DNA from: a virus
Taxonomy: Duplodnaviria > Caudoviricetes
Reading direction: 5' to 3' (one strand)
Length of the DNA: 52,477 nt
Virus record (IMG/VR): IMGVR_UViG_3300031774_000023
Location: 1 to 52,477 of that record
Shown here: piece by piece, positions 23,165 through 43,300 of the stretch
Position numbering within the stretch: the first letter of the stretch is position 1
How the letters are laid out: each line of letters begins with the position of its first letter
Translations under genes and position numbers: made by a program
The notes under the pieces: model-generated
The model's database searches: none
What the model saw: only the letters and a program-made list of their open reading frames with translations
What the model was told of the DNA's origin: nothing

Positions 23165-23509
23165 TTAAAATCTCCAATCTAAGGTTAATAAGGGGTTCTT
23201 CTTATCTAGTTTAAACCCCATGTTTAAGTTTCTATTAGGCGAAAAGTTTATCTTATTCTTTAATACATCAGCTCTTACACTATCTGGTAGAAGTTTAGTT
23301 AAAGTAGGGTCTATAACTCTATCTAAGAAAGTTTTACCGAATATAGCACCAGGTATTAATGCTGGGTTATCACCCACTTGTGACAAAGTATTCTTTATAC
23401 CTGCCCTGTTTTGTACCCCTTTATGGAGTAATTGTGCCCATACAGGACTTACATCCCTGTTAAAGGTCATTTCTTCCATATTTGCTGTGTTATCGCTATT
23501 ATACGCCAT
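23165..23509 (-). CDS. Hypothetical protein, first gene of the late arm (114 aa, MAYNSDNTAN...)
   Basis: Start reassigned to 23509, just downstream of a promoter; the upstream extension looks non-coding. Confidence 0.6.
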   Translation of the reverse strand: MAYNSDNTANMEEMTFNRDVSPVWAQLLHKGVQNRAGIKNTLSQVGDNPALIPGAIFGKTFLDRVIDPTLTKLLPDSVRADVLKNKINFSPNRNLNMGFKLDKKNPLLTLDWRF

Positions 23510-23520
23510 ATTATAGCTAT

Positions 23521-23550
23521 AATTTAACACTAACAAACACATACTTCCAA
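23521..23550 (-). promoter_or_regulatory. sigma70-like late promoter TTGGAA-N18-TAAATT (extended TGn)
   Basis: Same -10 hexamer as the promoters at 19587 and 49296; 11 nt from the ATG. Confidence 0.5.
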
Positions 23551-23564
23551 ATAGTTTATTATTT

Positions 23565-23695
23565 GAGGTACCTCTAATTACCCAACGTCCATGTAGAGAT
23601 AGCTTATACCTATGTATTCTTTGTCTAAAAAGAAGACTACCGCTAATACTACCCATGGAGGTACCTCTAAGTACTACCTCTATATATATACCTCT
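23565..23695. repeat. Repeated TACCTCT boxes; two copies of the palindrome GAGGTACCTC(taa)
   Basis: gaggtacctctaa at 23565 and 23658; tacctct again at 23675 and 23689. Confidence 0.75.
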
Positions 23696-23839
23696 GGTAG
23701 AAAATAACCCAAAAAATATATTTTCAAAGCCTTTTTTTATTTTTAGGCGTAAATCACTGAAAATCAACGATTTAGGTTGAGTTTTAAAAAAATTATAAAA
23801 ATTTTGCGTGTGTGAGATATACACACAACCCTACCCGCC

Positions 23840-23878
23840 GTTTTCAACCGTGGTGGGGGGGCGTAATCGGTTGAAAAC
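23840..23878. repeat. 11-bp perfect inverted repeat around a G-rich loop at the strand switch
   Basis: gttttcaaccg / cggttgaaaac flanking tggtgggggggcgtaat. Confidence 0.85.
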
Positions 23879-23963
23879 CTCTCATATGATGACCGCTTCG
23901 CTATCATATTCGAGCCCTTGCTATCATTGCTTTTTATTAATTAATAAGATAAAGGAAAAATCA

Positions 23964-24317
23964 ATGAAACAAACTACTAAATTTACAAAATCACTTTTAA
24001 CTACTCTATTTAATAAGATAAGTGATTTGAAAATTCTTGCAATATCAAAAGTATCACCAAAAGACGGCAAGCTCTATATAACTCTTCCATCAGTTGAGAG
24101 GTTACAATTGGGGGATACAACAGAGCCTACCGTCTTTTGGAATGATTCTTCTGATGTAATTGCACAACTAAAGCCTATTATTGGCGACGACTTGGTAATT
24201 GAACTATTGCCTCCAAGTCGTGAAGGTGAGGCTTTAGTTATTAAGGACAAATCAGATATGAAAGAATATTCAAAGAATGTAGCACTTGAATTTGTGGATT
24301 CTTTGAATAATCAATAA
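23964..24317 (+). CDS. Hypothetical protein, first early gene (117 aa)
   Basis: Start reassigned to ATG 23964 behind an AAGGA SD. Confidence 0.7.
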   Translation: MKQTTKFTKSLLTTLFNKISDLKILAISKVSPKDGKLYITLPSVERLQLGDTTEPTVFWNDSSDVIAQLKPIIGDDLVIELLPPSREGEALVIKDKSDMKEYSKNVALEFVDSLNNQ

Positions 24318-24341
24318 TATCTGATTTATCTGTATTAAAGA

Positions 24342-24388
24342 GTGATTGAGTTGTTAGTATATAGCGACTCAATCACATCTTTTTTTTA
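24342..24388 (+). terminator. Intrinsic terminator
   Basis: 15-bp stem gtgattgagttgtta/tagcgactcaatcac (two G-U pairs) followed by a T run. Confidence 0.75.
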
Positions 24389-24463
24389 TATAAAGTAATA
24401 CATACAGTTGTTTTGTATGTGTTTAAAAATTTATTAATTAATGTTAAACATAAAGGATAAAAT

Positions 24464-24619
24464 ATGACTTGCAGTAAATGTAAAACTGAGATTAAAGGTA
24501 ATGTTTTACACACAAATTGTCCTTGTTGTTGGGGAGGTATACTCAAAGTCTGTGAAGATTGTTTTAACTTCATAGAATTTGGTGATAATCCATTGACAAT
24601 GAAGGATATAACTGATTAA
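24464..24619 (+). CDS. 51-aa Cys-rich Zn-finger protein (MTCSKCK...HTNCPCCW...VCEDCF...)
   Basis: Manually translated; AAGGA SD; 7 Cys plus a His. Confidence 0.65.
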   Translation: MTCSKCKTEIKGNVLHTNCPCCWGGILKVCEDCFNFIEFGDNPLTMKDITD

Positions 24620-24628
24620 GAATCGGAG

Positions 24629-24660
24629 CTTGATAGAGCTTGGCAACAGAATCTATCAAG
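24629..24660 (+). other. Intergenic hairpin cttgataga-gcttggcaacagaa-tctatcaag
   Basis: 9-bp perfect stem. Confidence 0.6.
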
Positions 24661-24711
24661 AAGTATTTTATTTTAAAGATTTATAAACAAAACGAAAGGT
24701 AGGATAATTAA

Positions 24712-24930
24712 ATGGAAGATAATGATTTAAAAGAATATGCTCATCATGCAGATGATATAAGTTGTCAAGAAGAATATGATGAGTCTTCTAAGCGTAAAGA
24801 AAAATGCAAATTAAATGAAAAAGAAATTGTTTTGGATTATTACAGAACTAGGCTTGGTAATGCATTAATTTTAATTGATAAATTAGAAGATGAAATAACT
24901 GAATTACAAGGAGAAAGAAGAGGTAATTAA
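24712..24930 (+). CDS. Hypothetical acidic coiled-coil protein
   Basis: 72 aa; SD upstream. Confidence 0.65.
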   Translation: MEDNDLKEYAHHADDISCQEEYDESSKRKEKCKLNEKEIVLDYYRTRLGNALILIDKLEDEITELQGERRGN

Positions 24931-24937
24931 ACAATAA

Positions 24938-25152
24938 CAGAGAGAAAGTGAGGTTTCAACTGTAGAAATAACTATAATATACTAGAGGGATAGGGCGACA
25001 GTCTGATTCCCTCAAAGATTTGATGTATCAATCCGCTATAAATAAACTACTACCAATATGTAAGGAATTTGGGCTTGTGATGTCACTTGCAGCAAAGCTG
25101 GTGAGAGCGGTTTCATATGACGATATGATAGGATATGCATAGTTTTGTTTAT
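24938..25152 (+). ncRNA. Putative structured intergenic RNA(s)
   Basis: Hairpin 24985-25013; closing stem 25038-25049/25140-25152; internal hairpins cagc-aaa-gctg and tcatat-gacg-atatga. Confidence 0.45.
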
Positions 25153-25192
25153 TTACTATGTATTGAAATTAAATAGCTATAAAGGAGCTTAA

Positions 25193-25357
25193 ATGGAACA
25201 TATAGGAAAGATTATTAAAAGAGTAATGGATAGGTGGAAACACTGTAAAAAGTGTGAAATATACTACTTAGAAGACTGTAATTGTAAGATTGAGAAAGTA
25301 ATTGTAAAACTAAAAGACAATGTAATTATACAAACAAAAAGAAAGGTAGGAAAATAA
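25193..25357 (+). CDS. 54-aa protein with CKKC/CNC (possible Zn binding)
   Basis: Manually translated; AAGGAG SD. Confidence 0.6.
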   Translation: MEHIGKIIKRVMDRWKHCKKCEIYYLEDCNCKIEKVIVKLKDNVIIQTKRKVGK

Positions 25358-25494
25358 TGAAAGAATATCATTATATATTTGGTAATCTAATATCTATTGT
25401 AATAGCTAAGAGTAGAATGGAGGCTATTGAAAAGATAAAAGATAATATAGGTAGAAGATTTGTTGTTAGAATCTGTAAAGTAGTATCTATATAA
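25357..25494 (+). CDS. 45-aa hypothetical protein
   Basis: TAATG coupling; SD upstream. Confidence 0.55.
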   Translation: MKEYHYIFGNLISIVIAKSRMEAIEKIKDNIGRRFVVRICKVVSI

Positions 25495-25509
25495 AGATTA
25501 ATTAATAAA

Positions 25510-25608
25510 ATTAGAGAGATGTAAGTCCCGAGAAGACACTCAATAAGTCTTAAGAGCAAATAGCCATCGAGCATATTGCCTAAGCAAAACGAAGGCATTC
25601 TCTCTAAT
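25510..25608 (+). ncRNA. Putative structured intergenic RNA
   Basis: 10-bp closing stem attagagaga/tctctctaat; internal aagac/gtctt and gcct/aggc hairpins; contains TGTAAGTCC. Confidence 0.5.
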
Positions 25609-25628
25609 AAACCAAGAAAGGTATAAAA

Positions 25629-25799
25629 ATGGAATATTTTATAAGCATACTTGAAGAAGTAATAAAAAATTTTAAATCATATTGTGGTATTTTCATTTTA
25701 AAATGGAAAGATTCAAGTGAAATTAAAAAACAAATTGAAAAGATAGTTGAAGAATTGGAGTATTTAATCTTTTTAATAAAACAAGGAGGTATAAAATGA
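25629..25799 (+). CDS. 56-aa hypothetical protein
   Basis: Manually translated; ATGA overlap with the next gene. Confidence 0.55.
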   Translation: MEYFISILEEVIKNFKSYCGIFILKWKDSSEIKKQIEKIVEELEYLIFLIKQGGIK

Positions 25800-26089
25800 T
25801 AGTAGAAATGTTTTATGGTGTATTAATGATTATGGTAGAGTTTAGTGGCGATGATGTTCATCATTATAATGTCAAAGTAAATGAATTAGCGTCTATAAAC
25901 TTTAGTCAAAGCAAAATATCGTTTGTTTACAAGGAAAGCGGTAAAGAAGAGGTTTTAGATATATTTTCTGACCAAGACTATTTAGCATTTGCTAATTGGT
26001 GGAAAGATAATAAATATAAAGTTGTTCAAGCTATGGGTGAAGCAGATACAAAATACATTCATAATAGAAATACAGATGTTAAATTTTAA
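25796..26089 (+). CDS. Hypothetical protein
   Basis: 97 aa; AGGAGG SD. Confidence 0.7.
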   Translation: MIVEMFYGVLMIMVEFSGDDVHHYNVKVNELASINFSQSKISFVYKESGKEEVLDIFSDQDYLAFANWWKDNKYKVVQAMGEADTKYIHNRNTDVKF

Positions 26090-26091
26090 TA

Positions 26092-26209
26092 ATTAATAGA
26101 TGAGGTTCAAGAGTAGGTAAGTTTGAGGTAACATATAACTCTACAAAACTTGAGACGGGTGGTGGTGAGCTAAGGTGAAAGGTGAGAGTCCTTCGTGTAA
26201 TCTATTAAT
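26092..26209 (+). ncRNA. Putative structured intergenic RNA (GAGG...UGAGAC...UAAGG...GUGUA type)
   Basis: 10-bp perfect closing stem attaatagat/atctattaat; T-loop-like hairpin aagg-tgagagt-cctt. Confidence 0.55.
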
Positions 26210-26215
26210 AATAAT

Positions 26216-26360
26216 TAAGTGAGTGTTGTGTAACCGTGAGGCCACAGAGGGTTTTTATGTATTATAAGTAACAAGGGTTTTTGAGTGTTTTCATATTTCG
26301 CTCTATGTTTTCCCTTGACTTCAACTACTTATACCTTTCACCCTTGTTAGCACTCACTTA
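26216..26360 (+). ncRNA. Putative long-hairpin intergenic RNA
   Basis: Nested stems taagtgagtg/cactcactta, tataagta/tacttata and caaggg/cccttg. Confidence 0.55.
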
Positions 26361-26381
26361 TAATTTGGAAAGGAGTAACAA

Positions 26382-26543
26382 ATGAATAGTTATGATGATT
26401 ATCTACTAAGCGTAGTAGATGTCCTAATTGAGAATAATATTAAAATAGGGAGTAAACATGCAAAGAAGAACAAATCAAGCAGTATTCGCAGTATTAGCAA
26501 TGCTAACAATATGGATAGTAATTCATACATCAAGAATAAATGA
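26382..26543 (+). CDS. Possible 53-aa ORF
   Basis: Strong AAGGAG SD, but overlaps the next gene by 86 nt. Confidence 0.3.
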   Translation: MNSYDDYLLSVVDVLIENNIKIGSKHAKKNKSSSIRSISNANNMDSNSYIKNK

Positions 26544-26829
26544 TATAGATTCTGATGTAACAGTATTAAATAGAACATCAAATTCTATGATGAATAGACT
26601 TATATCATTAGAATCTGAGGAAACAGAGCATTCATATTTTGATTTATATGAAGAGCAAAATAGATATTTACAAAGTTTTGAAGGTGACCTAACATTTAAG
26701 GAAACTTTCAAGAAAATGAGAGCAGAGTATGGTGCTGGACATATCTTTGATTGGAATAAAAGGTTGTTCACAACATATTATGCTGAAGAGTTAATGTTAA
26801 CTAGTATAACAGAAAAGGAGAATAGATGA
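26458..26829 (+). CDS. Membrane-anchored protein (N-terminal TM, coiled coil, C-terminal TFKETF..R...F.WN...TT module)
   Basis: 123 aa; hydrophobic AVFAVLAMLTIWIVI; ATGA overlap with the Ubl gene. Confidence 0.7.
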   Translation: MQRRTNQAVFAVLAMLTIWIVIHTSRINDIDSDVTVLNRTSNSMMNRLISLESEETEHSYFDLYEEQNRYLQSFEGDLTFKETFKKMRAEYGAGHIFDWNKRLFTTYYAEELMLTSITEKENR

Positions 26830-27023
26830 ATATTAATCTATTAGTAAACGGTGAATTCGTTTCAAGAGATGTTACAGCTACAACAGTAGGTGAACTAAGA
26901 AATGAATTAGAAGTTCCAGCAGACGCTAATGTAATGGTTGGTGGAACTATCAGACAAAACGATTATGAATTGTCTGACGGCGATATTGTTGCTTATGCAA
27001 GTAATAATAAAGTAGGAGGATAA
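26826..27023 (+). CDS. Ubiquitin-like (ThiS/MoaD beta-grasp) protein ending in Gly-Gly
   Basis: 65 aa; TTVGEL...VMVGG...YELSDGDIV...KVGG-stop matches the beta-grasp pattern; AAGGAG SD. Confidence 0.88.
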   Translation: MNINLLVNGEFVSRDVTATTVGELRNELEVPADANVMVGGTIRQNDYELSDGDIVAYASNNKVGG

Positions 27024-27167
27024 TTATTTGCGAGGGTAAACAAGGAAATAGGAAGCCCATGAGACTAAGCAATTAGGGAATGGTATGCTACTATAATGCT
27101 GAAAGTTCTTAATTGAACAGTATAAGGCAGGAGGGACATCTGTAAAATGATGTGTGTAGCAAATAAT
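27023..27167 (+). ncRNA. Putative structured intergenic RNA (GAGG...UGAGAC...UAAGG...GUGUA type)
   Basis: 9-bp closing stem attatttgc/gcaaataat; internal caattaggga/ttcttaattg and acatc/gatgt stems. Confidence 0.55.
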
Positions 27168-27178
27168 AAATAATAACT

Positions 27179-27270
27179 TTAAATGAGAGCCAATAACTGG
27201 TCCTGTAAGTCCTGGCGAACGTTAACCAACACGATGGCATGGCAAAGGAATATGTGAGGCTCTCATTTAA
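27179..27270 (+). ncRNA. Putative structured intergenic RNA
   Basis: 13-bp perfect closing stem ttaaatgagagcc/ggctctcatttaa; contains TGTAAGTCC. Confidence 0.55.
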
Positions 27271-27298
27271 TTAAACAGAGATAATGAAAGGAGTAACC

Positions 27299-28876
27299 AT
27301 GATATATTATAATGGTCAAGAAGAAATAGAAGTAAGTGAGATTGATAAATTAAAAGATTTAACACAAGAAGAGACAAATAACTTAGCATCTGGACCTCAA
27401 GACTTATTTTTCAGTAAATTAGATGGTGTTAATCATACTTTACAGAATTATGGAATAAAAACACTAGCTGTTAATGATAAATGGAACTGGAAACCAGGAG
27501 CTTATCCAATAATGAGAGAATTTATTTCAAAAAAGTTAGAAATAGATAAAAAATGTCAAAGCTTAACCAAATTACTTGATAGAACAAGAAGCAATGTTAA
27601 TTATACTAATTATCTTACTAGACAAATAAAAGAAATGGAGATTGAGAAAAATAATCTTAAAAGATTAGGAGTATTAAAAGATGTTGATATTGATAAATTT
27701 AAAGAAAAATGTGTTGAATTTGTTAAAAGAATAGAAGAGCAATGCTCAAAAGCTTCTGAATTAACAAAAGGGGATGTTACTATTAATACCTTTGTAACTG
27801 ATTTAGAAACAAGAGTTCCAAGAATATATTATAATATTATATTAAATAATTTAACATTATCTATATATGATGGAGACAAAATGATTCAAGAGATACCTTT
27901 AGCACAGATTCATATAATAATTAGTCAAAATCTAAGAACTAAGTTAGGAATTAAAAATAAAGATATACGATTAACTGGTGTATATCAAGATTCTAACTAT
28001 AAAGAGGCTAAATTTCCTTATATTGCATCTGGTTATAATAATACTGAGTATTCAACTGTATGTTTAGATAAACATTATGATGATGTTTCAAATGCTATTT
28101 ATAAAAATGATTTAATATCTTTATCATTTATATTAATGCAATGGGCTCAATACTATCATATAAGTCATTCTAATCCATATAATCAGCCACATATGCTTAA
28201 GTTTGGTATGCCAGGAGAATATAGTGATGAATATTCAGCAACTCAATCAAGCTCAGCAGTTAATAACAGAAGTAATGAGATTCTTGAACGTAGCATTAAA
28301 TCGCTTAATTTAAACTATATTGATGCTAGTGAATATTATGTTTCTTCTCTGGATTTAGTTGAATGTAAATATAGAAATCTTAATAATGATTATCTAATGA
28401 GTAAAATGCATATTCAATTACAAAATACTGAATATTATTATAAAACAGAATCTTTAGTAATATTATTATTAAATAATATTATGCGTAATGCTGAGAATCC
28501 TAATTCAATATGGACTATAAGTGAAGAAGTTAGTAATCTTACTGGGCAGAATATAGGAATAAATAAAAATAGCTATCAAGAAGGAGACAATCAAATAACA
28601 GACATTAAAGATACACAGAAATCTGTTACATATGCTTTATTTAATTATTTTATGAATAGACCTTATCGTAATGGTTTTAGATTCATAGATAAAACAAATG
28701 AACATATGATAAATGAGTTGAATCCTTATGATTGTAATTACGTATTTAGTTACCTTGAAGCTCATAACTTCATAGAAGATGAGAAAGCAGAATATGTAAA
28801 TGATATTGTAACAAGTGATGATAAAATGAAAGAGATGATGAAAAATTGGGCTAATAGCTCAGAAAGGAGTGCATAA
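27299..28876 (+). CDS. Candidate E2 (ubiquitin-conjugating)-like protein with an N-terminal coiled coil
   Basis: Start reassigned to 27299 (AAGGAG SD). Central beta-rich region followed by FPYI...VCL (Cys codon 28061-28063) and helices ending in NPY. Lies between the Ubl and JAB genes. Confidence 0.6.
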   Translation: MIYYNGQEEIEVSEIDKLKDLTQEETNNLASGPQDLFFSKLDGVNHTLQNYGIKTLAVNDKWNWKPGAYPIMREFISKKLEIDKKCQSLTKLLDRTRSNVNYTNYLTRQIKEMEIEKNNLKRLGVLKDVDIDKFKEKCVEFVKRIEEQCSKASELTKGDVTINTFVTDLETRVPRIYYNIILNNLTLSIYDGDKMIQEIPLAQIHIIISQNLRTKLGIKNKDIRLTGVYQDSNYKEAKFPYIASGYNNTEYSTVCLDKHYDDVSNAIYKNDLISLSFILMQWAQYYHISHSNPYNQPHMLKFGMPGEYSDEYSATQSSSAVNNRSNEILERSIKSLNLNYIDASEYYVSSLDLVECKYRNLNNDYLMSKMHIQLQNTEYYYKTESLVILLLNNIMRNAENPNSIWTISEEVSNLTGQNIGINKNSYQEGDNQITDIKDTQKSVTYALFNYFMNRPYRNGFRFIDKTNEHMINELNPYDCNYVFSYLEAHNFIEDEKAEYVNDIVTSDDKMKEMMKNWANSSERSA

Positions 28877-29787
28877 TGAATATAGAAGATATATTCCACA
28901 TATCAGAGAAAGACTGGTACAATCTTCAAGCGTGGGCTACAATAGCTTACGAAGAGGATAAAAATGAAATATCTGGTTTAATGACAGCAATACCACAAGA
29001 AGATGGCACGATTAAAGTGGGAAATGTTGAAATACTTAAACAAGAGAACACTGGTACTAACACTGAGCTTGATGGAGAGGCTGTTAGTGAGTATATGATG
29101 AAATATGCTATGAAATATAAAGACAAGAATATGAAGTTTGTCTGGTGGCATTCACATCATACTATGGGAGCATTTTGGAGTGGGACTGATGAAAAAGAAA
29201 TAGATGCATGGAAAAATGAAAGCTATTCTTTAGCGTTAGTTATCAATCTAAAAGAAGAGTATCTATTTAGAGTAAGCTTTTGGAAACATAATGGATTACC
29301 TATGGAAAAGCATATAGATACTACTCTCAACATAGATAGAGAGAAGCCTCTTATTAATATCACAAATAAGATGAAGAAAGACTATAATGAGCTTTGCACA
29401 TCACCTCAAATAGCTACTTATAATCATGGCTGGACAAAAGCTGGTTGGTCACTTGATAATCATCAAGATAGCTTTAACTTCAGCAATAAAAAAAGAGTAA
29501 GCGCAAATGTAAAAGAAGCTTATTCGCAATGTCTTAGTAAATGTGAAAAAATGCAAGAAAGCTTCTTAGATGGAACTCTTTCATTTAAGGACTTTAAAGA
29601 CGAGATTAAGATACTTAATAAAGTATGCAAAAATAAGAAACTTCCTTTTAGTATTAAGGAATTTAACATGAGCAAAAATGATTTATTAAATAAATTATTA
29701 GAGCTATTTCCTTGTGATATGATAGAGTATGAGGATAATAATGTTAAACTAGAACTTGAACCACATGGAGGTTACTTATGGGCATAA
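28876..29787 (+). CDS. JAB/MPN+ (JAMM) metallopeptidase
   Basis: N-terminal Glu (NEISGL) and HSHHTMGAFWSGTD = HxH-x7-S-x2-D. Confidence 0.9.
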   Translation: MNIEDIFHISEKDWYNLQAWATIAYEEDKNEISGLMTAIPQEDGTIKVGNVEILKQENTGTNTELDGEAVSEYMMKYAMKYKDKNMKFVWWHSHHTMGAFWSGTDEKEIDAWKNESYSLALVINLKEEYLFRVSFWKHNGLPMEKHIDTTLNIDREKPLINITNKMKKDYNELCTSPQIATYNHGWTKAGWSLDNHQDSFNFSNKKRVSANVKEAYSQCLSKCEKMQESFLDGTLSFKDFKDEIKILNKVCKNKKLPFSIKEFNMSKNDLLNKLLELFPCDMIEYEDNNVKLELEPHGGYLWA

Positions 29788-30443
29788 ATATGAGGAGTGT
29801 AGGACTTGTAGACAACTTAAATGAGTTTAATTATCACATATTAGGCTGTGGCGCTATAGGTAGTGCCGCAGCTACCCAGTTAGTAAGAATGGGTGCAGAA
29901 AACTTCTGTTTATATGATAATGATGTAGTTGATACAGGAAATGTAGGAGTTTCACAATACACAATATACGATATAGGACATAAAAAAGTAGATATGTTAA
30001 AATCTAAAATATTAGATGTTAATAATTCTGCTGAAGTAATGTGTGCTGATGAGATGTTTAGTAATTATATCTATATGAATGATAATGATATAATCATACT
30101 TGGTTTTGATAGTATGAAATCTAGATTAGATGCTGTTAAAGCAATGACTGGGTGGAGACAAAGTAGTCCATTTCTTCTAATTGATGGAAGAATGGGAGCT
30201 GAACATTATCAACAGTATGTAATATTAAAGCCTACATTAGCAAAATACAAGGAAATATGGTATAGTGATGATGAAGGAAGCGAAGAGCCTTGTAATATGA
30301 AAGCTACCTCTTATTGTAGTAATATGAGTGGTAGTTTTATAGCAAATGCTATAAGGAAAATCGTTAAAGTTCAACCTTACGAAGAGTTTCTATCTTTTCA
30401 TTTCCCAACAATGACTATAGATAAAAACACCTTGGTAAAATAA
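29778..30443 (+). CDS. ThiF/MoeB/E1-family adenylyltransferase (Ubl-activating enzyme)
   Basis: ILGCGAIGS, LYDNDVV..GN, K.KV, GFDS..SR, IDGRMG; candidate catalytic Cys in EEPC. Confidence 0.92.
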   Translation: MGINMRSVGLVDNLNEFNYHILGCGAIGSAAATQLVRMGAENFCLYDNDVVDTGNVGVSQYTIYDIGHKKVDMLKSKILDVNNSAEVMCADEMFSNYIYMNDNDIIILGFDSMKSRLDAVKAMTGWRQSSPFLLIDGRMGAEHYQQYVILKPTLAKYKEIWYSDDEGSEEPCNMKATSYCSNMSGSFIANAIRKIVKVQPYEEFLSFHFPTMTIDKNTLVK

Positions 30444-34294: not shown

Positions 34295-34374
34295 GGGGAC
34301 GAATACACGACAGCGGTGAGCAGCTGTAAGCTTAGAAAATAAGTCGGAATGTAATGTCAATTATATTCGTCCCT
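34295..34374 (+). ncRNA. Putative structured intergenic RNA
   Basis: gggacgaata/tattcgtccc closing stem; internal acagc/gctgt and gctta/taagt hairpins. Confidence 0.5.
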
Positions 34375-36416: not shown

Positions 36417-37300
36417 CCACCATTTATAAATTTCATAAGGCTAAATAATCCGTTTGAAGTAGGATGTCCAAATTTATTTGTCTCACGTATTAAGTGTCTT
36501 ATTAAACCATCATGGTATTTAGTAATTTCCATTAAATTTTGAGGATTAGCAGAACCTTGTCCTATTGTTCCTAAATATCTAGCTCCAAAATCATTAGTAA
36601 AACCAGGTTTAGGTGATAACCTAGCATCAAAAGTTCCTCTTTCCATAACTCCTCTTCTATAAGAATAGTCACCACCTAGAGCTTTATCTATGGTATGAGT
36701 AGATTTACTAGGACGGGTCCTTTTTCCTGTATTAAATATTCTTAATCCAGCTGGAGTTTTATAAACTCTAAATAAAGATTTTTTATCCAATCTTGCATAA
36801 TCAATTAGATTTTTTATAGCCTCTTTTTGAGAATCGAAAGTTATCTGAGCTTTGCTATGTCTTAAAGCATTTGGCAAATCTATATCAATCATAGGTGTTC
36901 TTTTTAAACTTAAAAAATAGGCATTAGATGCTTTATCATATGAAGGACTATATAAAAATCCTTTTCTAAATCCAACATTTTTAGTAATAGGTTTAAATTG
37001 TTCTAGACTTCCGCTTCTCATATTCTTAATTAAAGTCATTTTATCAGACTTACCAGGTATTCTTAAAGCCTCAGGAAGAAAACGAAGATTTGGTTCTTTC
37101 TTTAAAATTTTAAAAGCTGTATCTGTAGTAGTATTCATATTCCTAATAATACTCGGAGAGGCATAACTACGTATTTTATCCTTAGCAGGATTAATATTTA
37201 AATCTTTTAGTAATTTTAAACCTAATTTTTTAGTATTATTACTTCTAATAGCTTGTCTAGCTATTATATAATACATCCCTCTTAATACTGTAGGTATCAC
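36413..37300 (-). CDS. Basic protein with an AEP-like C-terminal domain
   Basis: MIDID, YKTPAGLRIF and FDARLSPKPG motifs; ATGA-coupled to the giant RNAP gene. Confidence 0.55.
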   Translation of the reverse strand: MIPTVLRGMYYIIARQAIRSNNTKKLGLKLLKDLNINPAKDKIRSYASPSIIRNMNTTTDTAFKILKKEPNLRFLPEALRIPGKSDKMTLIKNMRSGSLEQFKPITKNVGFRKGFLYSPSYDKASNAYFLSLKRTPMIDIDLPNALRHSKAQITFDSQKEAIKNLIDYARLDKKSLFRVYKTPAGLRIFNTGKRTRPSKSTHTIDKALGGDYSYRRGVMERGTFDARLSPKPGFTNDFGARYLGTIGQGSANPQNLMEITKYHDGLIRHLIRETNKFGHPTSNGLFSLMKFINGG

Positions 37301-40300
37301 AATATTTTACCTAAATTAGTTCCTGGGGAAGGAGATGTGTATGAATCACCTTCTCTCATCCTTTTTGACTCTTTAGAAAATCCAGTCAAAGGGACACCAA
37401 ATACTTTTTCAGGTATTCTCATGGGGTTTGCAATTATCGATGTTTCAGGATGACCTACATCACGAAGCATTCTTCCAAATGGAAACATAGTCCATACATA
37501 ATAATCAGCTAATTTAGTATAATCATCTTCAGCAAATTCTCTTATAACAGATATAGGGAACCTAGCTAAAGGAGGAGTAATCATTTGAAGAGGAGCTATT
37601 GATGAAGGATAAGTCCCAAAGAATGCTCTATCTCTTTCTGTCTCATCACCAAAAATCCATTCTGCTGTATCTTGTAGCCAATTATAAGGAGCAGGAACTG
37701 TTTGTCCAAATAGAGAATACATAAATACAGAGCCTAAGGCCATTATAAACATATCGGCTTGCATAGTTCTTTCAAACTTTCTCATAGCTTCAGTCCCTGG
37801 TTTAAAACCATATAATTGAGCTTGTTTTCTAACATCATTTCTAAATCTAACTGCATTCCAACTCCATAATTGAAATCTAGAAAACATTTTACCAAGAGCT
37901 GTAGCAGCAAAAGCTGGTCTTTCAGCAGAATTATATAAGAACTGAGTAGCTTTAACTCCTTTTTTAGCAAGTTCAATTAATATAGGATTATCTATATTCT
38001 TTATAGAACCACCTAATCTTTCCCAAGCTTTAATATAGTGAGCCATAAAAGCATCTCTTCTCAAAATCCTTTCAGGGACAGACATAAACAAAGCCGCTTT
38101 ATTCATTATAGCTTTAGATACTCCATATTTATTTGCCAAAGCAACCATATCTATTTTACTTATTTCTTTTAAACCTGTAGATTTGTTTGCCAAATCAGTA
38201 ACAAATGCTTTAGCCCTAGAACCTCTAAAATCTTTATCTAATCCAAACTGATGTAATGTAGCCTCTGGAACAACTCCATGAGATTCAACAAACTCCATAA
38301 CTTTGTCCCAACTAGTCCACTCAGGATTTATTCTCTGTAATTCTTTTAAATTTCTAGCTTTCCTAAGAGGCTCATAGCCTACAGATTGAAATGTGTGCAT
38401 AGTTCCACCAAATATATTATTAATAGGTGTTTTAGGATGTGTCATTAATGTAGCTAACTCAAATTTAGCTTCTAGATTACTCCATCTCTGAGCATCCCAA
38501 GCTGTTTTGCCTAAGTAAGATTCGACTGATTCAATATCCTCTTTTGACATATTTTCAAAATCTATCTTACCCTTTTTCATTTTTAATGCTTTAGGTATTT
38601 TAGCAGATAATCCCATTTTCTTCATAGATGTATTTATAAAATTAGCAAATCTATTATCAGCCCACCAACCATAAGGAGAAGCATCAAGTTTTAATGATTT
38701 GTCATTATACATCTTATCACTTATTATAGTAGGCATACCCATAGCTCTTTTAGCATATAGACTCCAAAAATTCAACCAACCTTTAACTAATTCTTGGCCT
38801 TCAGCTCTCTCTTTATCATTACCTTTTACCCACTTTTTAGTCATATGCTCTCGCATTTGATGTAATGTATATCTTGATGTCATATTTGCCAACTGTCTAA
38901 ATGCTGTTCTTGATAAATTTCTTATATATAAATGCGCATTCTCAACTCCAACTGAGTAACCACCAGTATGATGTTCACGCTTATTCATGCTATTGAATGT
39001 TTCATTTACATTCTCTAGTAAAAATGAATTATTCTCTTTTAATTTTTTCCCTTTTGCCAAATCAAGAAGAGTATCTCCGAATAAATCTGTATCCATTTTA
39101 TCCATCATTTCATAATCAGCTATATCCCAATCGCCATTTCTGGTTCTATATTTAAGAAATATCTTCTTTTGTCTTTCTTGATATTCTTCTTGAGATATAC
39201 TTTTTTTAGATTTTTTTAATTCAGATAATTCAAAGTCCATAGATTCTTTATGCTTTTTATTGCTAAGGAAATAATGAGGAAACCATCCCTTCCTATAATC
39301 AGTGCTAAATATCTCTAGATTTGCATATCTTTCAGCCCTTTCTGAACGACCAGGTTTATAGTATCCTTTTTGTTTAAAAGATAATTTCCAATAATCATCT
39401 ACACTAATCTTAGTACCTTTACCCCATCCATGAGTTTTAATATACTCTGTAGCAGGTAGTAAATCAATCATCATAGACCTATTGATATGCCTCATTCCAT
39501 CTATACCTACTTTTAAACTACTTAAAATATGTTGATTATCTCCTCTTTCATAGGCTTTTTCTAATCTTCTTAAGAATAGCTTCCAATCATATTTAGGTTT
39601 GCTAGGATTAGGTTTATGACCATCATACCATCCTTCTTGATATTCATCTAAAGCGCCCTCTTCTCCTCTAGTAAGTCTGTATGTCTCATTTGCAAATTCT
39701 TTCCATCTTTTAACAGCTTTTTTCAGAAGTTGATGACCAGTGAACTCTTCTCTTTCTTTTCCAGAACCAATAATATATTTCTTAACTTTAAGAGCAGGCC
39801 AATTATGCTTTTCAACAGAGTCTTTCCATTGTTTTTCATATATAGGTGATTCTGATTTATTTTGTAGTTCGTGGTATCTCATTGCCAAATTCCATATAGC
39901 TTCACCATCAGGGACTTGGTCTAAAAATGATATTTTATTGTTTAGTTGATTTTGTTTTGTCAAAGAAAATCCATCTTCTATTTCATGCAACCTTCCTATC
40001 ATGTTCCTAATAGTATCACCATAGTAAGTTGGTCTCAAAACATATCCTTCTTTAGCTACACCATCTTTGTCTTGAAAGAAAGCTTTAACCTTTAGCATTT
40101 TTAAGTCTCTTGCCATCATATTCTTATTAACCTGCTCAGGCATACCCATAAAATCCCAACCTGAAACCTTAGCAGAGTTAACTTCATCTATTTGTCTCTC
40201 TATTTGTTTGCGAATAGTTCCTTTCCTATTCATTTCAAACCACGTATTTAATCTCTTAAAATCCTCTATATTCATCTGATTTAAGTTCTTAGTAACTATA

Positions 40301-43300
40301 GGGTTAATATCAGAGTATATACCTGCTACAAGTTGATTTAAATCCATTTTAGAGTAATCAGTTATTTGTTTTAAGTTATGCTCAAGCTCACTTACTATTT
40401 TTCTCTGTTCTGATGTAATCTCTACTTTAAGGTCAGATAGTCCTTCATAACCAGTCATATCAACTGCGTTTTTATTAATACTAAATACATTCTCCTTAGG
40501 GTCAACCTTCTCTAGTTCTTTATTAAACTCTTTTATAGCTTCACTTTTTTCATTAATCTCTGTCATCGTTTTATTAAAATATTTGCCTTTCAATGCAAGA
40601 AATCTCTGGATATTAGAAGGAGATACATTCTCCGATTCGTATGCTAATTGAGTAGTGCTAGTTTTAGAACCATGTTCGTATAATGCATCTTTAACCATTC
40701 TGTTAAACTTATTATCGCCAGTTAATTTGTCAAGTTTAAAAATGCTTTCTATTTTATCATGAACATTTCTATCTCTTAAAGAGCCTATTAACAAATAGTC
40801 AAACACTTTTTTACCAGTAGGGGATAGAGATTCTTTATATTTATTTATAAAAACATCTAATTGCCCCATATCAAGCAGCTTACTTCTTTTTTCATTAGAA
40901 AAGTCTTTTATATTTGTCTCACCTAAAAGAGCTAATTGAAGCTCTCTAGTTCTTTTCATAGCATATCTTTGAGCTGGTGTTAAATCGTCAAACATAGCTC
41001 CTTGAGTTCTTCTTTGAATTTGATTTAATATACTTGTCTGTTTAAATGCTTCAACATTCTTAGATATATCTTTAACTTCGTTATTAGTTATTCTTTTAGA
41101 CCTAACTTCTGGCTCTATTAATTTAAGAGTAACCATATCATGTAAATCATCAGACAGCCTTCTATCAGCTTCTTTTAATGTATAAAGAAGGTAATCTTTC
41201 ATTATTTCCTTAGTTAAATCCTTCTTTTCAACAATATTACCTCTAAAATCTTTATAAACAGGTTCTATTCCATAGCCACCATCTTCTATACTTTTTCTTA
41301 AAACTCTATCTGTAGATAAATAGGCCTTAGAGAAATCCTCAATAACATATGCTTCATGTAACTTTTCTTTAGATGCAAAATAAATTTCTTTTGAAAAAGG
41401 AGTTTTTAAATAGGTTCTGCCAAGTAAAGGTTTTATCCAGTTAAGTTTAGCAGCCTCTTTATTAGTAGATTCGTATAAAGATTTAACTGCTTCTGAATTA
41501 ATTCTATTAAATATACTAAAATTAAGGTCTATATTTTTTAATGTCAAAGCCATCTTAGGTAATGCTGTATCTATAGAATCTGTTTCAAATGTCTCTATTT
41601 CATTCAACTTTTCTATTTTTTCTGCATTAGTCCAACTTCTATCTTTATTCCAATTCTTTCCAAATAAAGCCTCATTGAATCCTTTTATTTTATCATAAGA
41701 GGAAATATCTTTATAAACTTCTTTTTTTTCTTTCTTTGATGCTTTTATACTTTGAATATTTTTAAATTCTGATTTTTTTATATCAACAAATCCCTTTTTA
41801 GTTATTTTCTTAAATCCTGTTTCAAAATAAGAATCTGTAAGTATAGTTCTTAAATCTTTCATATTCTTTAAGCCCGTCATATCCATAGGGTCTGCCCCAA
41901 ATGCAGTCATAGCACTCGATAGTAATCTTTGTCTTGATGAAGGCTCTTTAGCTTTAAGAACTTTTTTTATTATAGTTCCATCACCATAGGATATTACCTC
42001 TAAATCTTCTGTTGCATTAGCCAGTTTTCTTACAGAACTCCAAGCAGCTCTCATGTTTTGAGTCATACTAACTATAGGTGCAAGTAGATTTCTTCCCTCT
42101 ACAGCTTTCTCCCCTGTAAAAAGTCTAACTCCTGGAAAGAACTTAGCATGAGGCATAGTTTTATCTTTACCTTGCATAATATCTATTATTTCAGGAGGTA
42201 TGCCCATTTTTTTTAATTCTTTTTTACCTATTAAAAGCTCATCTTTAAACATCTCTTTAACATTAGCTAACTCAGAGCCTTCTCTAGATTTTTTGATATT
42301 TTTATCAGTAACCTCCTGTATATGTTCCTTGATTTTCTTTTGTATTTCTTTTAATGCCCCATCTCTAGTAAACCATTTTTGATTAGGCATTTTTTTCAAA
42401 TGAGGATTCCATACAACTTTAATACCTTCAGGACTGCTTTCAAGTTTCTCGCCTTTAATGTGCAATTCTCCTTTTCCAAATTGATAGTCTTTCTTTTTAC
42501 CATCCAAATCTGTTCCTAATTCTCCTGAATTTATACTTTCATTATGCTCTTTTTCAGTATGCTTTATAAACCTTCTATATGCTCTATCTATTCTCCTAGT
42601 TTCTTTAGCGCCTTCTATAGTTGATAAATACTTTCCTCTTTCTGCAGGAGTAACAGGTTTTGACTTATCTTTTGGAATAATGTATTCATCTTTTTGAGCT
42701 CTAAACATTTCTTTAAAGCTATTTTTCATACCAAATCCCTCACCTGTTTCAGCTTTTCCTCCAAAATAGACAAATGATTCATCTCCATCTAAATCAGCTC
42801 CACCTTCAGCTCTTAAAACTCTACCATGTTGCAATATACCATGGTCTTTAACGCCTGTAAAACCTCTAAAATGAAGTACTTGAGCTCCTGACATAGAATC
42901 CTGAGGAACTCTTACACTTATAGCCTCAAATACATCTTCTACCATTTTCTTCTTAGAAACATCATTATCAAAAAGCTTATTTTTATATGCATCCCATAGC
43001 TCACCTAAAGTAGTTTTTTTATAATTATCTATTTCTGTTTTAATAATAGTATCTCTATATAAGTCACCTAAATAAAATAATTCATCAGCATTTTTACCCC
43101 ATGTTTTTTGAGCTTTTTTATCTGAATTTAATTCAGGAAACAACTTCTGCATATAAACATCATAAGGTCTCATTCTAGCCATTAAAGCGTTATCTGCTTT
43201 AGGGTTTAAAACTTTATCGGCTACATAGCCATCTAAAGCTTTTTGTATGTAATTCTTAGTATATTTGTCATAAAACAGTGGATATAGACTTTCTTTAGAT

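What the first reader, a model, noticed from the sequence alone, without database searches (positions are those of the whole stretch)
26092..27167. Two copies of a candidate structured RNA motif (stem-GAGG...UGAGAC...UAAGG-hairpin-GUGUA-stem)
Seen: elements 26092-26209 and 27023-27167 have different perfect closing stems (10 and 9 bp) but the same ordered short motifs. GAGG follows the 5' stem strand directly (26102, 27032), then TGAGAC (26151, 27060), TAAGG (26171, 27123), a hairpin, and GTGTA directly before the 3' strand (26195, 27154). Conserved junctions with different stems are the signature of a structured RNA family. I do not recognise it as a hammerhead, twister, pistol or HDV ribozyme. 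One copy starts at the Ubl stop codon.
Basis: partly seen in the sequence, partly recalled or inferred. Interest (0 to 1): 0.72.

Follow-up and report, generated by a model that had tools for sequence, protein, structure and literature searches.

The report
New stem-closed RNA family in marine phages
The two elements are real members of an uncatalogued family of compact folded RNAs that uncultured marine phages carry between their early genes, in the same slots where related phages carry other folded RNAs, tRNA genes or the giant GOLLD RNA; what the RNAs do is still unknown.

Summary
Observation confirmed. Both elements have perfect closing stems (10 and 9 bp), GAGG directly after the 5' arm and GTGTA directly before the 3' arm.

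The stems alone are not special in this 33% GC window: about 85 perfect inverted repeats of 9 bp or more lie within 40-260 nt of each other. The full architecture is far above chance.
- In 1.79 Mb of the window plus related phage loci it occurs 93 times (59 distinct sequences, 19 different stem words).
- It is always on the gene strand. Six control word pairs gave 1-6 hits.

Helices not used for selection covary. Covariance models built only from other phages recover both elements:
- A at 73.1 bits, E 8e-15.
- C at 33.1 bits and A at 23.0 bits, as the top two window hits.

Rfam 15 has no match.

TGAGAC and TAAGG are not family-wide (9 and 11 of 54).

The family has no fixed neighbour gene. It sits in tight arrays with other stem-closed RNA modules and tRNA-Met. 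Some relatives that carry it also carry GOLLD RNA.

Best reading: autonomous structured RNA cassettes in early transcripts, probably stable RNAs that act through a purine-rich junction. The biochemical role is not shown.

The parts
26092..26209 (+). Element A, subgroup 1 of the GAGG...GUGUA family. P1 26092-26101/26200-26209; GAGG 26102-26105; P2 26106-26111/26149-26154 with a 35-nt extension in its loop; G-rich joiner 26157-26178; P4 26179-26182/26190-26193; GTGTA 26195-26199.
   Evidence: Sequence. CM R2, built from 8 members of other phages, hits exactly 26092-26209 at 73.1 bits, E 8e-15. In the 12-sequence alignment A6, 237 of 237 cells pair and 13 of 20 pairs change on both sides; 0 of 500 shuffles reach this.
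27023..27167 (+). Element C, subgroup 4-like member. P1 27023-27031/27159-27167; GAGG 27032-27035; inserted module of about 27049-27100 containing the TGAGAC word; AGGG then P4 27136-27140/27149-27153; GTGTA 27154-27158. It starts on the last base of the Ubl stop codon.
   Evidence: Sequence. CM R3, built from 3 members of other phages, gives 27023-27167 as the top window hit (33.1 bits, E 1.9e-5). L001 has the same element with a roughly 80-nt insertion. P4 covaries among L034, L091 and L012.
26216..26360 (+). Element B, a second stem-closed module in the same gap, of a different type. Its closing stem is 26216-26225/26351-26360.
   Evidence: z -3.44. It is 92-97% identical in L003, L006, L002 and L008. 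Its 5' 41 nt are also in L061, L062, L011 and L016. The closing stem has two compensatory changes in L061.
27179..27270 (+). Element D, a widespread stem-closed module of another type. It has a 13-bp P1, two conserved internal loops and a variable apical stem, and lies directly upstream of the RBS of the 530-aa gene.
   Evidence: z -4.25. In 21 aligned copies 95.7% of cells pair, and 11 of 21 pairs change on both sides (1 of 500 shuffles reach that count; 0 of 500 reach the observed value on the other four measures). Its 3' word occurs in at least 119 IMG/VR stretches.
25510..25608 (+). Element E, a stem-closed module of a further type, in the gap after the 45-aa ORF.
   Evidence: 10-bp closing stem. 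Both of its ends recur in L061, L062, L017, L028, L002, L013 and others, mostly in the Ubl/530-aa slot.
26826..27023 (+). Ubl gene (ThiS family, ends in GG). Element C abuts its stop codon.
   Evidence: Pfam ThiS E 1.6e-4; ORF list.

Best explanation
Elements A and C are two paralogous members of an uncatalogued family of autonomous, stem-closed structured RNAs. Each is made as part of the rightward early/replication transcripts of an uncultured marine phage.

Each copy has a long perfect closing helix (P1, 7-15 bp) that brings its ends together and lets it fold independently of the flanking mRNA. Inside is a purine-rich, cytosine-poor junction: GAGG after P1, a GG-N-GG(G) segment, an AGG segment, and GUGUA before P1'. 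This junction carries one to three helices of variable length.

I read these as interchangeable RNA cassettes, not regulators of the neighbouring gene. They are most likely kept, or released by host RNases cutting the short A/U-rich linkers, as compact stable RNAs. They would then act through the conserved junction on a partner in trans, such as a protein, the ribosome or a small ligand. This would make them functionally parallel to the tRNA-Met genes, other stem-closed modules and GOLLD RNA that occupy the same slots in related phages.

Shown: family membership, the helices, the strand, the lack of a fixed gene partner, the co-location with tRNA, and GOLLD in some relatives that carry the family. 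Inferred: release as stable RNA, action in trans, and any partner.

My odds: about 0.9 that this is a real structured RNA family; about 0.45 for the stable, trans-acting cassette reading as a whole.
For: 1. Architecture far above chance and strand-specific.
- 37 instances, all on the + strand, in 514 kb against 0-3 in shuffles.
- 93 instances / 59 distinct in 1.79 Mb with 19 different inner P1 words.
- 37 of 37 informative copies are co-oriented with the D-type module; the other 56 lie in loci without it.
- Control word pairs gave 0-6.

2. Covariation in helices that were not used to select members.
- Subgroup 2, P3: positions 1-5 pair in 20, 20, 20, 17 and 18 of 20 distinct stems, with up to 4 pair types.
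- A5: 98.9% paired, 8 of 13 pairs change on both sides, 0 of 500 shuffles.
- A6, which includes A: 100% paired, 13 of 20 pairs, 0 of 500 shuffles. There are 3 compensatory positions in P2, one in P4, and an invariant U-G pair at the base of P2 that fits RNA of this strand.

3. Models built from other phages recover A (73.1 bits) and both C and A (33.1 and 23.0 bits; next hit 15.0). R3 also finds members of other subgroups in 85 loci.

4. A is 94-98% identical in L003, L061 and L062, while flanking DNA against L062 is 77-82%.

5. Not tied to a gene. 50 downstream ORFs fall in 28 clusters and 52 upstream ORFs in 26. Members lie in ORF-free gaps: 3 of 54 overlap a same-strand ORF.

6. Company.
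- tRNA-Met lies 1 nt before a member in L012 and between a member and a D-type module in L034.
- L092:2620-3800 is a roughly 1.2-kb ORF-free array of tRNA, modules of several types and two family members 3 nt apart.
- GOLLD RNA is in L019, L092, L089 and L100. The last three also carry family members, 2.5-3 kb downstream on the same strand.
- In L019, GOLLD lies after the homologue of the small ORF that precedes element E in the window.

7. The slot between the Ubl gene and the 530-aa gene holds at least six interior types inside a similar hairpin base among 49 distinct gaps.

8. Contigs of RNA libraries run through both gaps in continuity with flanking genes (X15, X16, one study).
Against: - No 5' or 3' ends, abundance or stability data exist. 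The RNA-library evidence is contigs only, from one study, and DNA carry-over is not excluded.
- Those contigs are continuous with the flanking ORFs, which fits an unprocessed mRNA just as well.
- In the window the elements sit singly between protein genes. They start 0-3 nt after stop codons, and elsewhere many end 16-26 nt before a start codon. This placement fits a cis role in mRNA processing, stability or translation equally well.
- P1 was part of the search criterion, so its pairing rate is circular. Only its diversity counts.
- The subgroups cannot be aligned through their interiors. The subgroup 2 model (R1) does not see A or C and R2 does not see C. The unity of the superfamily therefore rests on the outer architecture and on R3.
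- A's own folding energy is no better than that of shuffled sequence.
- No bacterial-genome scan could be obtained, so host copies are unknown.
Confidence: 0.45

Rival explanations
1. Cis-acting punctuation of the polycistronic early mRNA. The modules would be processing or stabilising elements. They might be cut by a host double-strand- or structure-specific RNase, or cleave themselves as a new ribozyme class. Alternatively they might simply block exonucleases. Either way each cistron would get defined, protected ends.
For: - Members begin 0-4 nt after the upstream stop codon in 10 of the 48 members that have an upstream ORF, including A and C.
- 14 of the 50 members with a downstream ORF end 16-26 nt before the next start, just enough room for an RBS.
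- Unrelated module types and tRNA genes replace one another in the same slot. A generic processing role could be met by many folds, and the known small ribozyme classes cluster in phage-like regions (recalled, not from a call).
- RNA-library contigs are continuous with the flanking ORFs.
Against: - A simple exonuclease block would not need invariant junction words across 19 different stems.
- No known ribozyme family matches even at E up to 10.
- Long ORF-free arrays of modules (L092) have no cistrons to punctuate.
- There are no cleavage data of any kind.
Confidence: 0.27
2. Cis-regulatory aptamer: a riboswitch, or an operator for a phage or host RNA-binding protein, that controls translation of the downstream gene.
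For: - A closing helix around a multi-helix junction, with conserved joining strands and variable stems, is the classic aptamer layout (established knowledge).
- Several members lie directly upstream of the RBS of the 530-aa gene: L012, L023, L034, L037, L068, L075.
- The junction words resemble Shine-Dalgarno sequences (read directly from the sequence).
Against: - There is no fixed downstream gene: 28 clusters among 50 ORFs.
- A and C are each followed by another module, not by an RBS.
- P1 is long and perfect (9-15 bp), so it is unlikely to switch.
- No terminator-like site follows either element.
- The same slot is filled by unrelated folds in close relatives.
- Tandem and array arrangements occur far from any ORF.
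Confidence: 0.12
3. A DNA-level feature: hairpin-forming recombination cassettes or miniature mobile elements, whose inverted repeats act in DNA with no RNA function.
For: - Presence or absence polymorphism falls exactly at module boundaries. C is absent from L002, L003 and L005, and L002 has two extra modules in gap 1.
- The same hairpin base carries different interiors.
Against: - The arms differ between copies (19 inner P1 words), unlike the terminal repeats of a mobile element.
- All copies are on the gene strand: 0 on the - strand among oriented loci, and 37 of 37 co-oriented where testable.
- Internal helices covary and use G-U pairs, which would be A-C mismatches on the other strand.
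- No transposase or recombinase is associated.
Confidence: 0.05
4. Chance: two AT-rich inverted repeats that happen to enclose the same short words.
For: Such inverted repeats are common in the window (about 85). A's fold is no better than that of shuffles.
Against: Shuffles and control word pairs, covariation and independent model hits.
Confidence: 0.02

Closest known systems
GOLLD RNA (Rfam RF02032) and ROOL RNA: large phage-encoded structured RNAs near tRNA islands
   Same: Both are phage-borne, on the gene strand, of unknown function and associated with tRNA genes. GOLLD itself is present in four related contigs (L019, L092, L089, L100). Three of these (L092, L089, L100) also carry family members. 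A marine GOLLD downstream of a Met-tRNA is described in passages I read of bioRxiv 10.1101/2024.12.08.627333.
   Different: The elements here are 65-230 nt, against more than 800 nt. They show no sequence or model similarity to GOLLD. They come in many short types. No evidence of multimeric cages exists for them.
Small self-cleaving ribozymes of phage-like regions (hammerhead, twister, twister-sister, pistol, hatchet)
   Same: Both are small multi-helix RNAs closed by a stem, with conserved junction nucleotides. Different classes occur near one another and in tandem in phage-like DNA (recalled from the literature, not from a call).
   Different: No match to any of these Rfam families at E up to 10. 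No cleavage site can be named. Catalysis is untested.
Riboswitch aptamers
   Same: A P1 helix encloses a junction with invariant joining strands and variable-length helices.
   Different: There is no fixed regulated gene, no expression platform, and P1 is very long and perfect. Unrelated folds replace the element in the same slot.
Small stable RNAs in the phage T4 tRNA gene cluster
   Same: Both are tight head-to-tail packing of tRNA genes with other small structured RNAs of unknown function in a phage (recalled, not from a call). Here tRNA-Met lies 1 nt from a member in L012 and overlaps a D-type module in L034.
   Different: There is no sequence relation. In the window itself no tRNA is present and the elements lie between protein genes.
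Candidate structured RNAs catalogued from IMG/VR (Fremin and co-workers 2023, PMC10690425)
   Same: That survey clustered IMG/VR intergenic regions and reported about ten thousand covarying motifs absent from Rfam (passages read). The contigs used here are IMG/VR contigs, so this family or the D-type module may be among those unnamed candidates.
   Different: The main text I searched mentions no ribozyme, tandem, ubiquitin or GOLLD context (0 occurrences each).

Membership tests
GAGG...GUGUA stem-closed RNA family (defined here) | Closing helix of 7 bp or more, with GAGG directly 3' of its 5' arm and GUGUA directly 5' of its 3' arm | tested here: met
   A has a 10-bp stem and C a 9-bp stem, with both words in place.
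GAGG...GUGUA stem-closed RNA family (defined here) | Terminal hairpin 0-2 nt upstream of GUGUA, preceded by an AGG-containing purine stretch (subgroups 1, 3 and 4) | tested here: met
   A: AAGG/CCTT hairpin, then 1 nt, then GTGTA. C: 5-bp hairpin, then 0 nt, then GTGTA.
GAGG...GUGUA stem-closed RNA family (defined here) | Recognised by a covariance model built without window sequences | tested here: met
   R2 hits A at 73.1 bits, E 8e-15. R3 hits C at 33.1 bits (E 1.9e-5) and A at 23.0 bits (E 0.0039), with the next hit at 15.0. Against this: R1 (subgroup 2) finds neither and R2 does not find C.
Known self-cleaving ribozyme families in Rfam | Match to the family covariance model | tested here: not met
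   Nothing at gathering score in the window. None among 5 chance-level matches at E up to 10 in 25500-27800.
Known self-cleaving ribozyme families in Rfam | Site-specific self-cleavage | not testable with these tools
   This needs in vitro transcription or raw-read end mapping. Only contigs were available.
Riboswitch | Consistent association with one gene family or pathway | tested here: not met
   50 downstream ORFs fall in 28 clusters.
Riboswitch | Expression platform (terminator, or RBS-sequestering alternative to P1) | tested here: inconclusive
   No terminator-like site lies next to A or C. A and C are followed by other modules. Alternative pairings were not modelled.
GOLLD RNA (RF02032) | Match to the Rfam model | tested here: not met
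   No match in the window. Matches in relatives only.
tRNA or tRNA-like | Cloverleaf detected by ARAGORN or Rfam | tested here: not met
   0 tRNA genes in the window and no Rfam tRNA hit.
Miniature inverted-repeat mobile element | Conserved terminal inverted repeats and copies in both orientations | tested here: not met
   19 different inner stem words. 0 copies on the - strand among oriented loci, and 37 of 37 co-oriented where testable.
Intrinsic terminator | G+C-rich hairpin followed by a T run | tested here: not met
   The only two terminator-like sites in 23500-27600 are at 24342-24376 (+) and 23827-23807 (-).

The most novel reading that the evidence does not exclude
The GAGG...GUGUA family would be a new functional RNA class whose purine-rich junction is the active part. 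That junction could be a new self-cleaving core. It could instead be a Shine-Dalgarno-like or G-quartet-forming surface that captures the host ribosome or another host factor.

Together with the D-, E- and other module types, tRNA-Met and GOLLD, it would form an exchangeable 'RNA cassette' toolkit. Abundant marine phages would swap these cassettes in and out of conserved hairpin bases between their early genes.
Probability: 0.15. Interest if true: 0.85.

Novelty: new variant of a known kind. Interest (0 to 1): 0.62.

Why it matters
Phage-encoded structured RNAs of unknown function, such as GOLLD and ROOL, are a long-standing puzzle. This phage lineage offers a compact and abundant natural system. 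Small RNA modules with clear covariation sit in the same genomic slots as tRNA-Met, and some lineage members also carry GOLLD.

Several features make the system tractable:
- The modules are short (65-150 nt), so they can be synthesised.
- They have sharply defined ends.
- They occur in many natural variants, which suits biochemical tests such as cleavage, probing and pull-downs.

Finding what one of them binds or does could hint at what the larger phage RNAs in these phages do. The swapping of unrelated folds inside a conserved hairpin base is also an unusually clear case of modular evolution at the RNA level.

Tried and rejected
- **Known families.** Rfam at gathering score on the window, at E up to 10 on 25500-27800 and at E up to 5 on the L092 array gave nothing for the modules. 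ARAGORN found no tRNA in the window.
- **Cultured relatives.** blastn of the region and tblastn of the 530-aa protein against 50,697 GenBank phage records found no match. No cultured relative or host can be named. The low G+C and marine sources only suggest a low-GC marine host.
- **Thermodynamics alone.** A is not better than shuffles, so it was rejected as a criterion.
- **Promoter scan.** 22 sites against 23.3 in shuffles, which is not informative.
- **Subgroup 2 model R1 on the window.** No hit to A or C.
- **RNA-library contigs.** X19 and X20 gave only read-length pieces of a related strain. The parts without cover say nothing.
- **Tool errors.** One search was repeated within the limit. 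Part was repeated.
- **Hypotheses considered and dropped.**
  - An invertible DNA segment: all interiors are in one orientation.
  - An integron attC-like site or a kink-turn next to P3: the sequence does not fit as I recall those motifs. This was not formally tested.
  - A hairpin-ribozyme-like reading of module D: no Rfam hit, and the two loops are separated by only 4 bp.
- **Ideas recalled from general knowledge, not tested.** UGUA/GAG beside P1 might form a bulged-G (sarcin-ricin-like) module. The GG tracts might form a two-tier G-quadruplex.
Full report
**The setting**

The window is a single 52,477-bp contig of 33% G+C, and it is also the whole assembly held for it. It is a tailed-phage genome.
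- Terminase, portal and major head protein lie on the minus strand.
- Two giant ORFs of 2586 and 3307 aa have no family match.
- From about 23.8 to 36.4 kb a rightward block holds small ORFs and replication genes.

In that block, in order:
- a 97-aa ORF (25796-26089);
- a 292-nt gap;
- two small ORFs;
- a ThiS-type ubiquitin-like gene ending in GG (26826-27023);
- a 275-nt gap;
- a 530-aa protein of no known family, whose true start is probably 27299 as in its relatives;
- a JAB peptidase;
- a ThiF-type E1;
- an AAA_24 ATPase, a DnaB-like primase-helicase and an HNH endonuclease.

No GenBank phage record resembles the region or the 530-aa protein.

**Checking the observation**

The stems by themselves mean little. 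A script found about 85 perfect inverted repeats of 9 bp or more, spaced 40-260 nt apart, in this AT-rich window. Element A folds no better than its shuffles (z -0.66) and C moderately better (z -2.38).

Each gap in fact holds two stem-closed elements:
- A (26092-26209) followed by B (26216-26360);
- C (27023-27167) followed by D (27179-27270).

B and D fold much better than shuffles (z -3.44 and -4.25). A fifth element, E, lies at 25510-25608.

**Relatives**

The 530-aa protein was used as an anchor. It brought in 83 loci from IMG/VR and marine metagenomes at 29-91% identity. Some are the same contig fetched from two collections, so I count distinct sequences below.

Alignment of the two gaps gave several results.
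- L002 has a short version of A. The inner extension of one helix is replaced by a 5-nt loop, and the last hairpin carries a compensatory change.
- L002, L003 and L005 lack C altogether.
- L001 has C with an insertion of roughly 80 nt.
- D keeps its closing stem through compensatory changes while its centre varies.

**Is the architecture more than chance?**

I scanned all sequence held, on both strands, for this pattern: a helix of 7 bp or more (G-U allowed), followed directly by GAGG, and preceded on its 3' arm directly by GTGTA, with 40-330 nt between the two words.
- In the window plus 83 loci (514 kb) there are 37 instances (21 distinct). All are on the strand of the genes. Twenty block shuffles gave 0-3.
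- Ten other word pairs gave 0-4 instances on the + strand and 0-2 on the - strand. The two with most hits, GAGT/GTGTA and GAGG/GGTA, are variants that evident members carry.
- Two pattern scans of IMG/VR with 3'-terminal words of two subgroups added 44 loci.
- Over all 236 sources (1.79 Mb) there are 93 instances and 59 distinct sequences. At least two are spurious long spans (in L084 and L233). They carry 19 different 7-nt inner stem words.
- All 37 instances in loci that also carry an oriented D-type word are co-oriented with it. The other 56 lie in loci without that word. Six control word pairs gave 1-6.

**Structure and covariation**

Members fall into subgroups that cannot be aligned through their interiors.

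*Subgroup 1* includes element A. Its order is: P1, GAGG, a 6-bp helix P2 whose loop may carry an extension, a G-rich joiner, a 4-bp hairpin P4, one nucleotide, GUGUA, P1'. On 12 distinct sequences (A6):
- 237 of 237 cells pair.
- 13 of 20 pairs change on both sides: 9 in P1, 3 in P2 and 1 in P4.
- 0 of 500 shuffles reach the observed pairing or covariation score. Sliding the partners drops pairing to 29-53%.
- P2 and P4 were not used to pick the sequences.

*Subgroup 2* has this order: P1, GAGG, an optional hairpin, GG-N-GGGA, a helix P3, GAGGA-AAAA, GUGUA, P1'.
- In 20 distinct P3 stems, anchored only on the flanking words, positions 1-5 pair in 20, 20, 20, 17 and 18 cases, with up to four pair types.
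- On A5 (21 sequences) 98.9% of cells pair and 8 of 13 pairs change on both sides; 0 of 500 shuffles reach this.

*Element C* resembles a subgroup (L034:643-761, L091:1688-1778, L183, L012:2307-2392) that ends in AGGG, a 5-bp hairpin and GUGUA. Two positions of that hairpin covary among the four.

Across the family the joining strands are purine-rich with almost no cytosine. GG-N(1-2)-GG is in 49 of 54 members and AGGT in 37 of 54. In A, TGAGAC is the 3' strand of P2. In C it belongs to an inserted module that also occurs inside other closing stems (L042, L043).

**Independent recognition**

- A model built from eight subgroup 1 members of other phages, leaving out A and its near-identical copies, hits the window at exactly 26092-26209. 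The score is 73.1 bits (E 8e-15) and the next hit scores 13.5 bits. It does not hit C.
- A model built from three members of other phages of C's subgroup gives C (33.1 bits, E 1.9e-5) and A (23.0 bits, E 0.0039) as its two best window hits. The third hit scores 15.0 bits.
- On 85 loci that model also finds members of other subgroups at E up to 0.05.
- The subgroup 2 model finds neither A nor C.

So A and C are two members of one family at the level of the outer architecture, but of different subgroups.

**Known families**

Rfam 15 has no match to any module.
- Gathering threshold on the window.
- E up to 10 on 25500-27800, where the five matches are chance-level and elsewhere in the stretch.
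- E up to 5 on an array in L092.

The main text of a 2023 survey of IMG/VR intergenic regions reports about ten thousand unnamed candidates. Two literature searches turned up no description of such modules. That covers only the held library.

**Context**

Members lie in ORF-free gaps. 3 of 54 overlap a same-strand ORF of 50 aa or more. 13 overlap an opposite-strand ORF, which in AT-rich DNA is probably spurious.

They are packed tightly:
- 10 of the 48 members with an upstream ORF begin 0-4 nt after its stop. This includes A (3 nt) and C (0 nt).
- 14 of the 50 with a downstream ORF end 16-26 nt before its start.

They have no fixed partner gene. 50 downstream ORFs fall into 28 clusters and 52 upstream ORFs into 26.

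They keep company with other RNA genes:
- tRNA-Met lies 1 nt before a member in L012.
- tRNA-Met lies between a member and a D-type module in L034.
- L092:2620-3800 is a roughly 1.2-kb ORF-free array. It holds tRNA-Met, several module types, a D-type module, two family members 3 nt apart and a weak tRNA-like stretch.
- L087 has a subgroup 2 member and a subgroup 1 member 4 nt apart.
- GOLLD RNA passes Rfam's threshold in L019, L092, L089 and L100. The last three also carry family members.
- In L019, GOLLD fills an 860-nt gap after the homologue of the 45-aa ORF that precedes element E in the window.
- The passages I read of the cryo-EM preprint say that GOLLD and ROOL lie near tRNA islands in phages, that a marine GOLLD lies downstream of a Met-tRNA, and that their function is unknown.

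**Slot swapping**

Between the Ubl gene and the 530-aa gene nearly all relatives have a hairpin whose base is similar from phage to phage. The interior is one of at least six unrelated types. By a rough count over 49 distinct gaps these are: D-type in at least 11, E-type in at least 12, the family studied here in at least 7, three further types, and 14 unclassified, some of which are D variants my pattern missed.

The same module types occur at other positions with other stems. A is 94-98% identical between the window and L003, L061 and L062, while flanking DNA against L062 is 77-82% identical.

**Expression**

Contigs from two oligo-dT RNA libraries of one study run through gap 1 (25967-26432 and 25941-26717) and gap 2 (26722 to beyond 27400), in continuity with the flanking ORFs. 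These are contigs. They show neither ends nor strand, and DNA carry-over is not excluded.

**Interpretation**

I take it as shown that this is a real structured RNA family of the gene strand, with two copies in the window, and that it is not in Rfam.

How it works is inference. Three features argue against a switch or a gene-specific regulator:
- the long perfect P1;
- the lack of a partner gene;
- replacement by unrelated folds and by tRNA.

Two further features lead me to favour autonomous cassettes that persist as compact RNAs and act on a partner through the purine-rich junction (about 0.45):
- invariant junction words across 19 different stems;
- the arrays with tRNA genes.

A cis role as mRNA punctuation, including self-cleavage by a new core, is the main rival (about 0.27). 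It fits the snug placement between stop codon and RBS. A cis regulator (0.12), a DNA-level element (0.05) and chance (0.02) follow.

Two structural ideas are recalled from general knowledge of RNA motifs and were not tested. One is a bulged-G module formed by UGUA and GAG next to P1. The other is a two-tier G-quartet from the four GG tracts.

**What is left open**

No bacterial-genome scan could be obtained, so host or prophage copies are unknown. No raw reads were available, so RNA ends are unknown.

Noticed in passing
window 27179-27270 (+): Module D is a well-conserved structured RNA of another type. It has a 13-bp closing stem, two conserved internal loops separated by a 4-bp helix, and a variable apical stem. 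In 21 aligned copies 95.7% of cells pair, and 11 of 21 pairs change on both sides. Its 3' word is in at least 119 IMG/VR stretches. No Rfam match.
   Followed up: partly
window 25510-25608 (+); L002:3867-3975; L061:1190-1300: Module E is a stem-closed element whose two ends recur in many relatives. There it mostly sits in the slot between the Ubl gene and the 530-aa gene instead of this slot.
   Followed up: partly
window 26216-26360 (+): Module B has a closing stem with two compensatory changes in L061 and z -3.44. Its 3' arm carries a conserved TATAAT-like word about 12 nt before the RBS of the next ORF; a promoter-like site is called at 26337-26364.
   Followed up: partly
L019:2031-2435, L092:799-1219, L089:848-1252, L100:6608-6999: GOLLD RNA (RF02032, 164-193 bits) occurs in four related marine phage contigs. 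In L092 and L089 a tRNA gene lies between it and the small modules, on the same strand.
   Followed up: partly
about 55 loci, the 100-350 nt before the homologue of window 27299: The gap between the Ubl gene and the 530-aa gene nearly always holds a hairpin with a similar base, but its interior is swapped among at least six unrelated module types. Many loci also have a small G+C-rich hairpin right after the Ubl stop.
   Followed up: partly
window 26826-30443 (+): A phage-borne cluster of a ThiS-like Ubl ending in GG, a conserved 530-aa protein of no known family, a JAB peptidase and a ThiF-type E1. In PADLOC only the E1 matches (E1-E2 models). The 530-aa protein has no Pfam, PHROG or GenBank-phage match.
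   Followed up: partly
window 23808-23935 (+): A G+C-rich (up to 50%) stretch at the start of the rightward block with several hairpins. It is 94.5% identical in L003. A listed 169-aa ORF begins here, but its first third looks non-coding.
   Followed up: no
window 34296-34373 (+) and 24930-25190 (+): Further stem-closed stretches in other gaps of the same block (10-bp and 9-bp closing stems). No copy was found in the first 83 loci.
   Followed up: no
window 24342-24376 (+): A strong terminator-like hairpin (15 pairs, then a T run) after the gene that ends at 24317.
   Followed up: no
window 2538-10298 (-) and 37297-47220 (-): Two giant ORFs (2586 and 3307 aa) with no Pfam family at E up to 0.001, apart from a sub-threshold carbohydrate-binding hit.
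   Followed up: no
L092:3601-3660 (+): A tRNA-like stretch with an acceptor-like stem and a T-arm-like hairpin. It scores only 18.5 bits against tRNA-Sec (E 1.4) and lies at the end of the module array.
   Followed up: no
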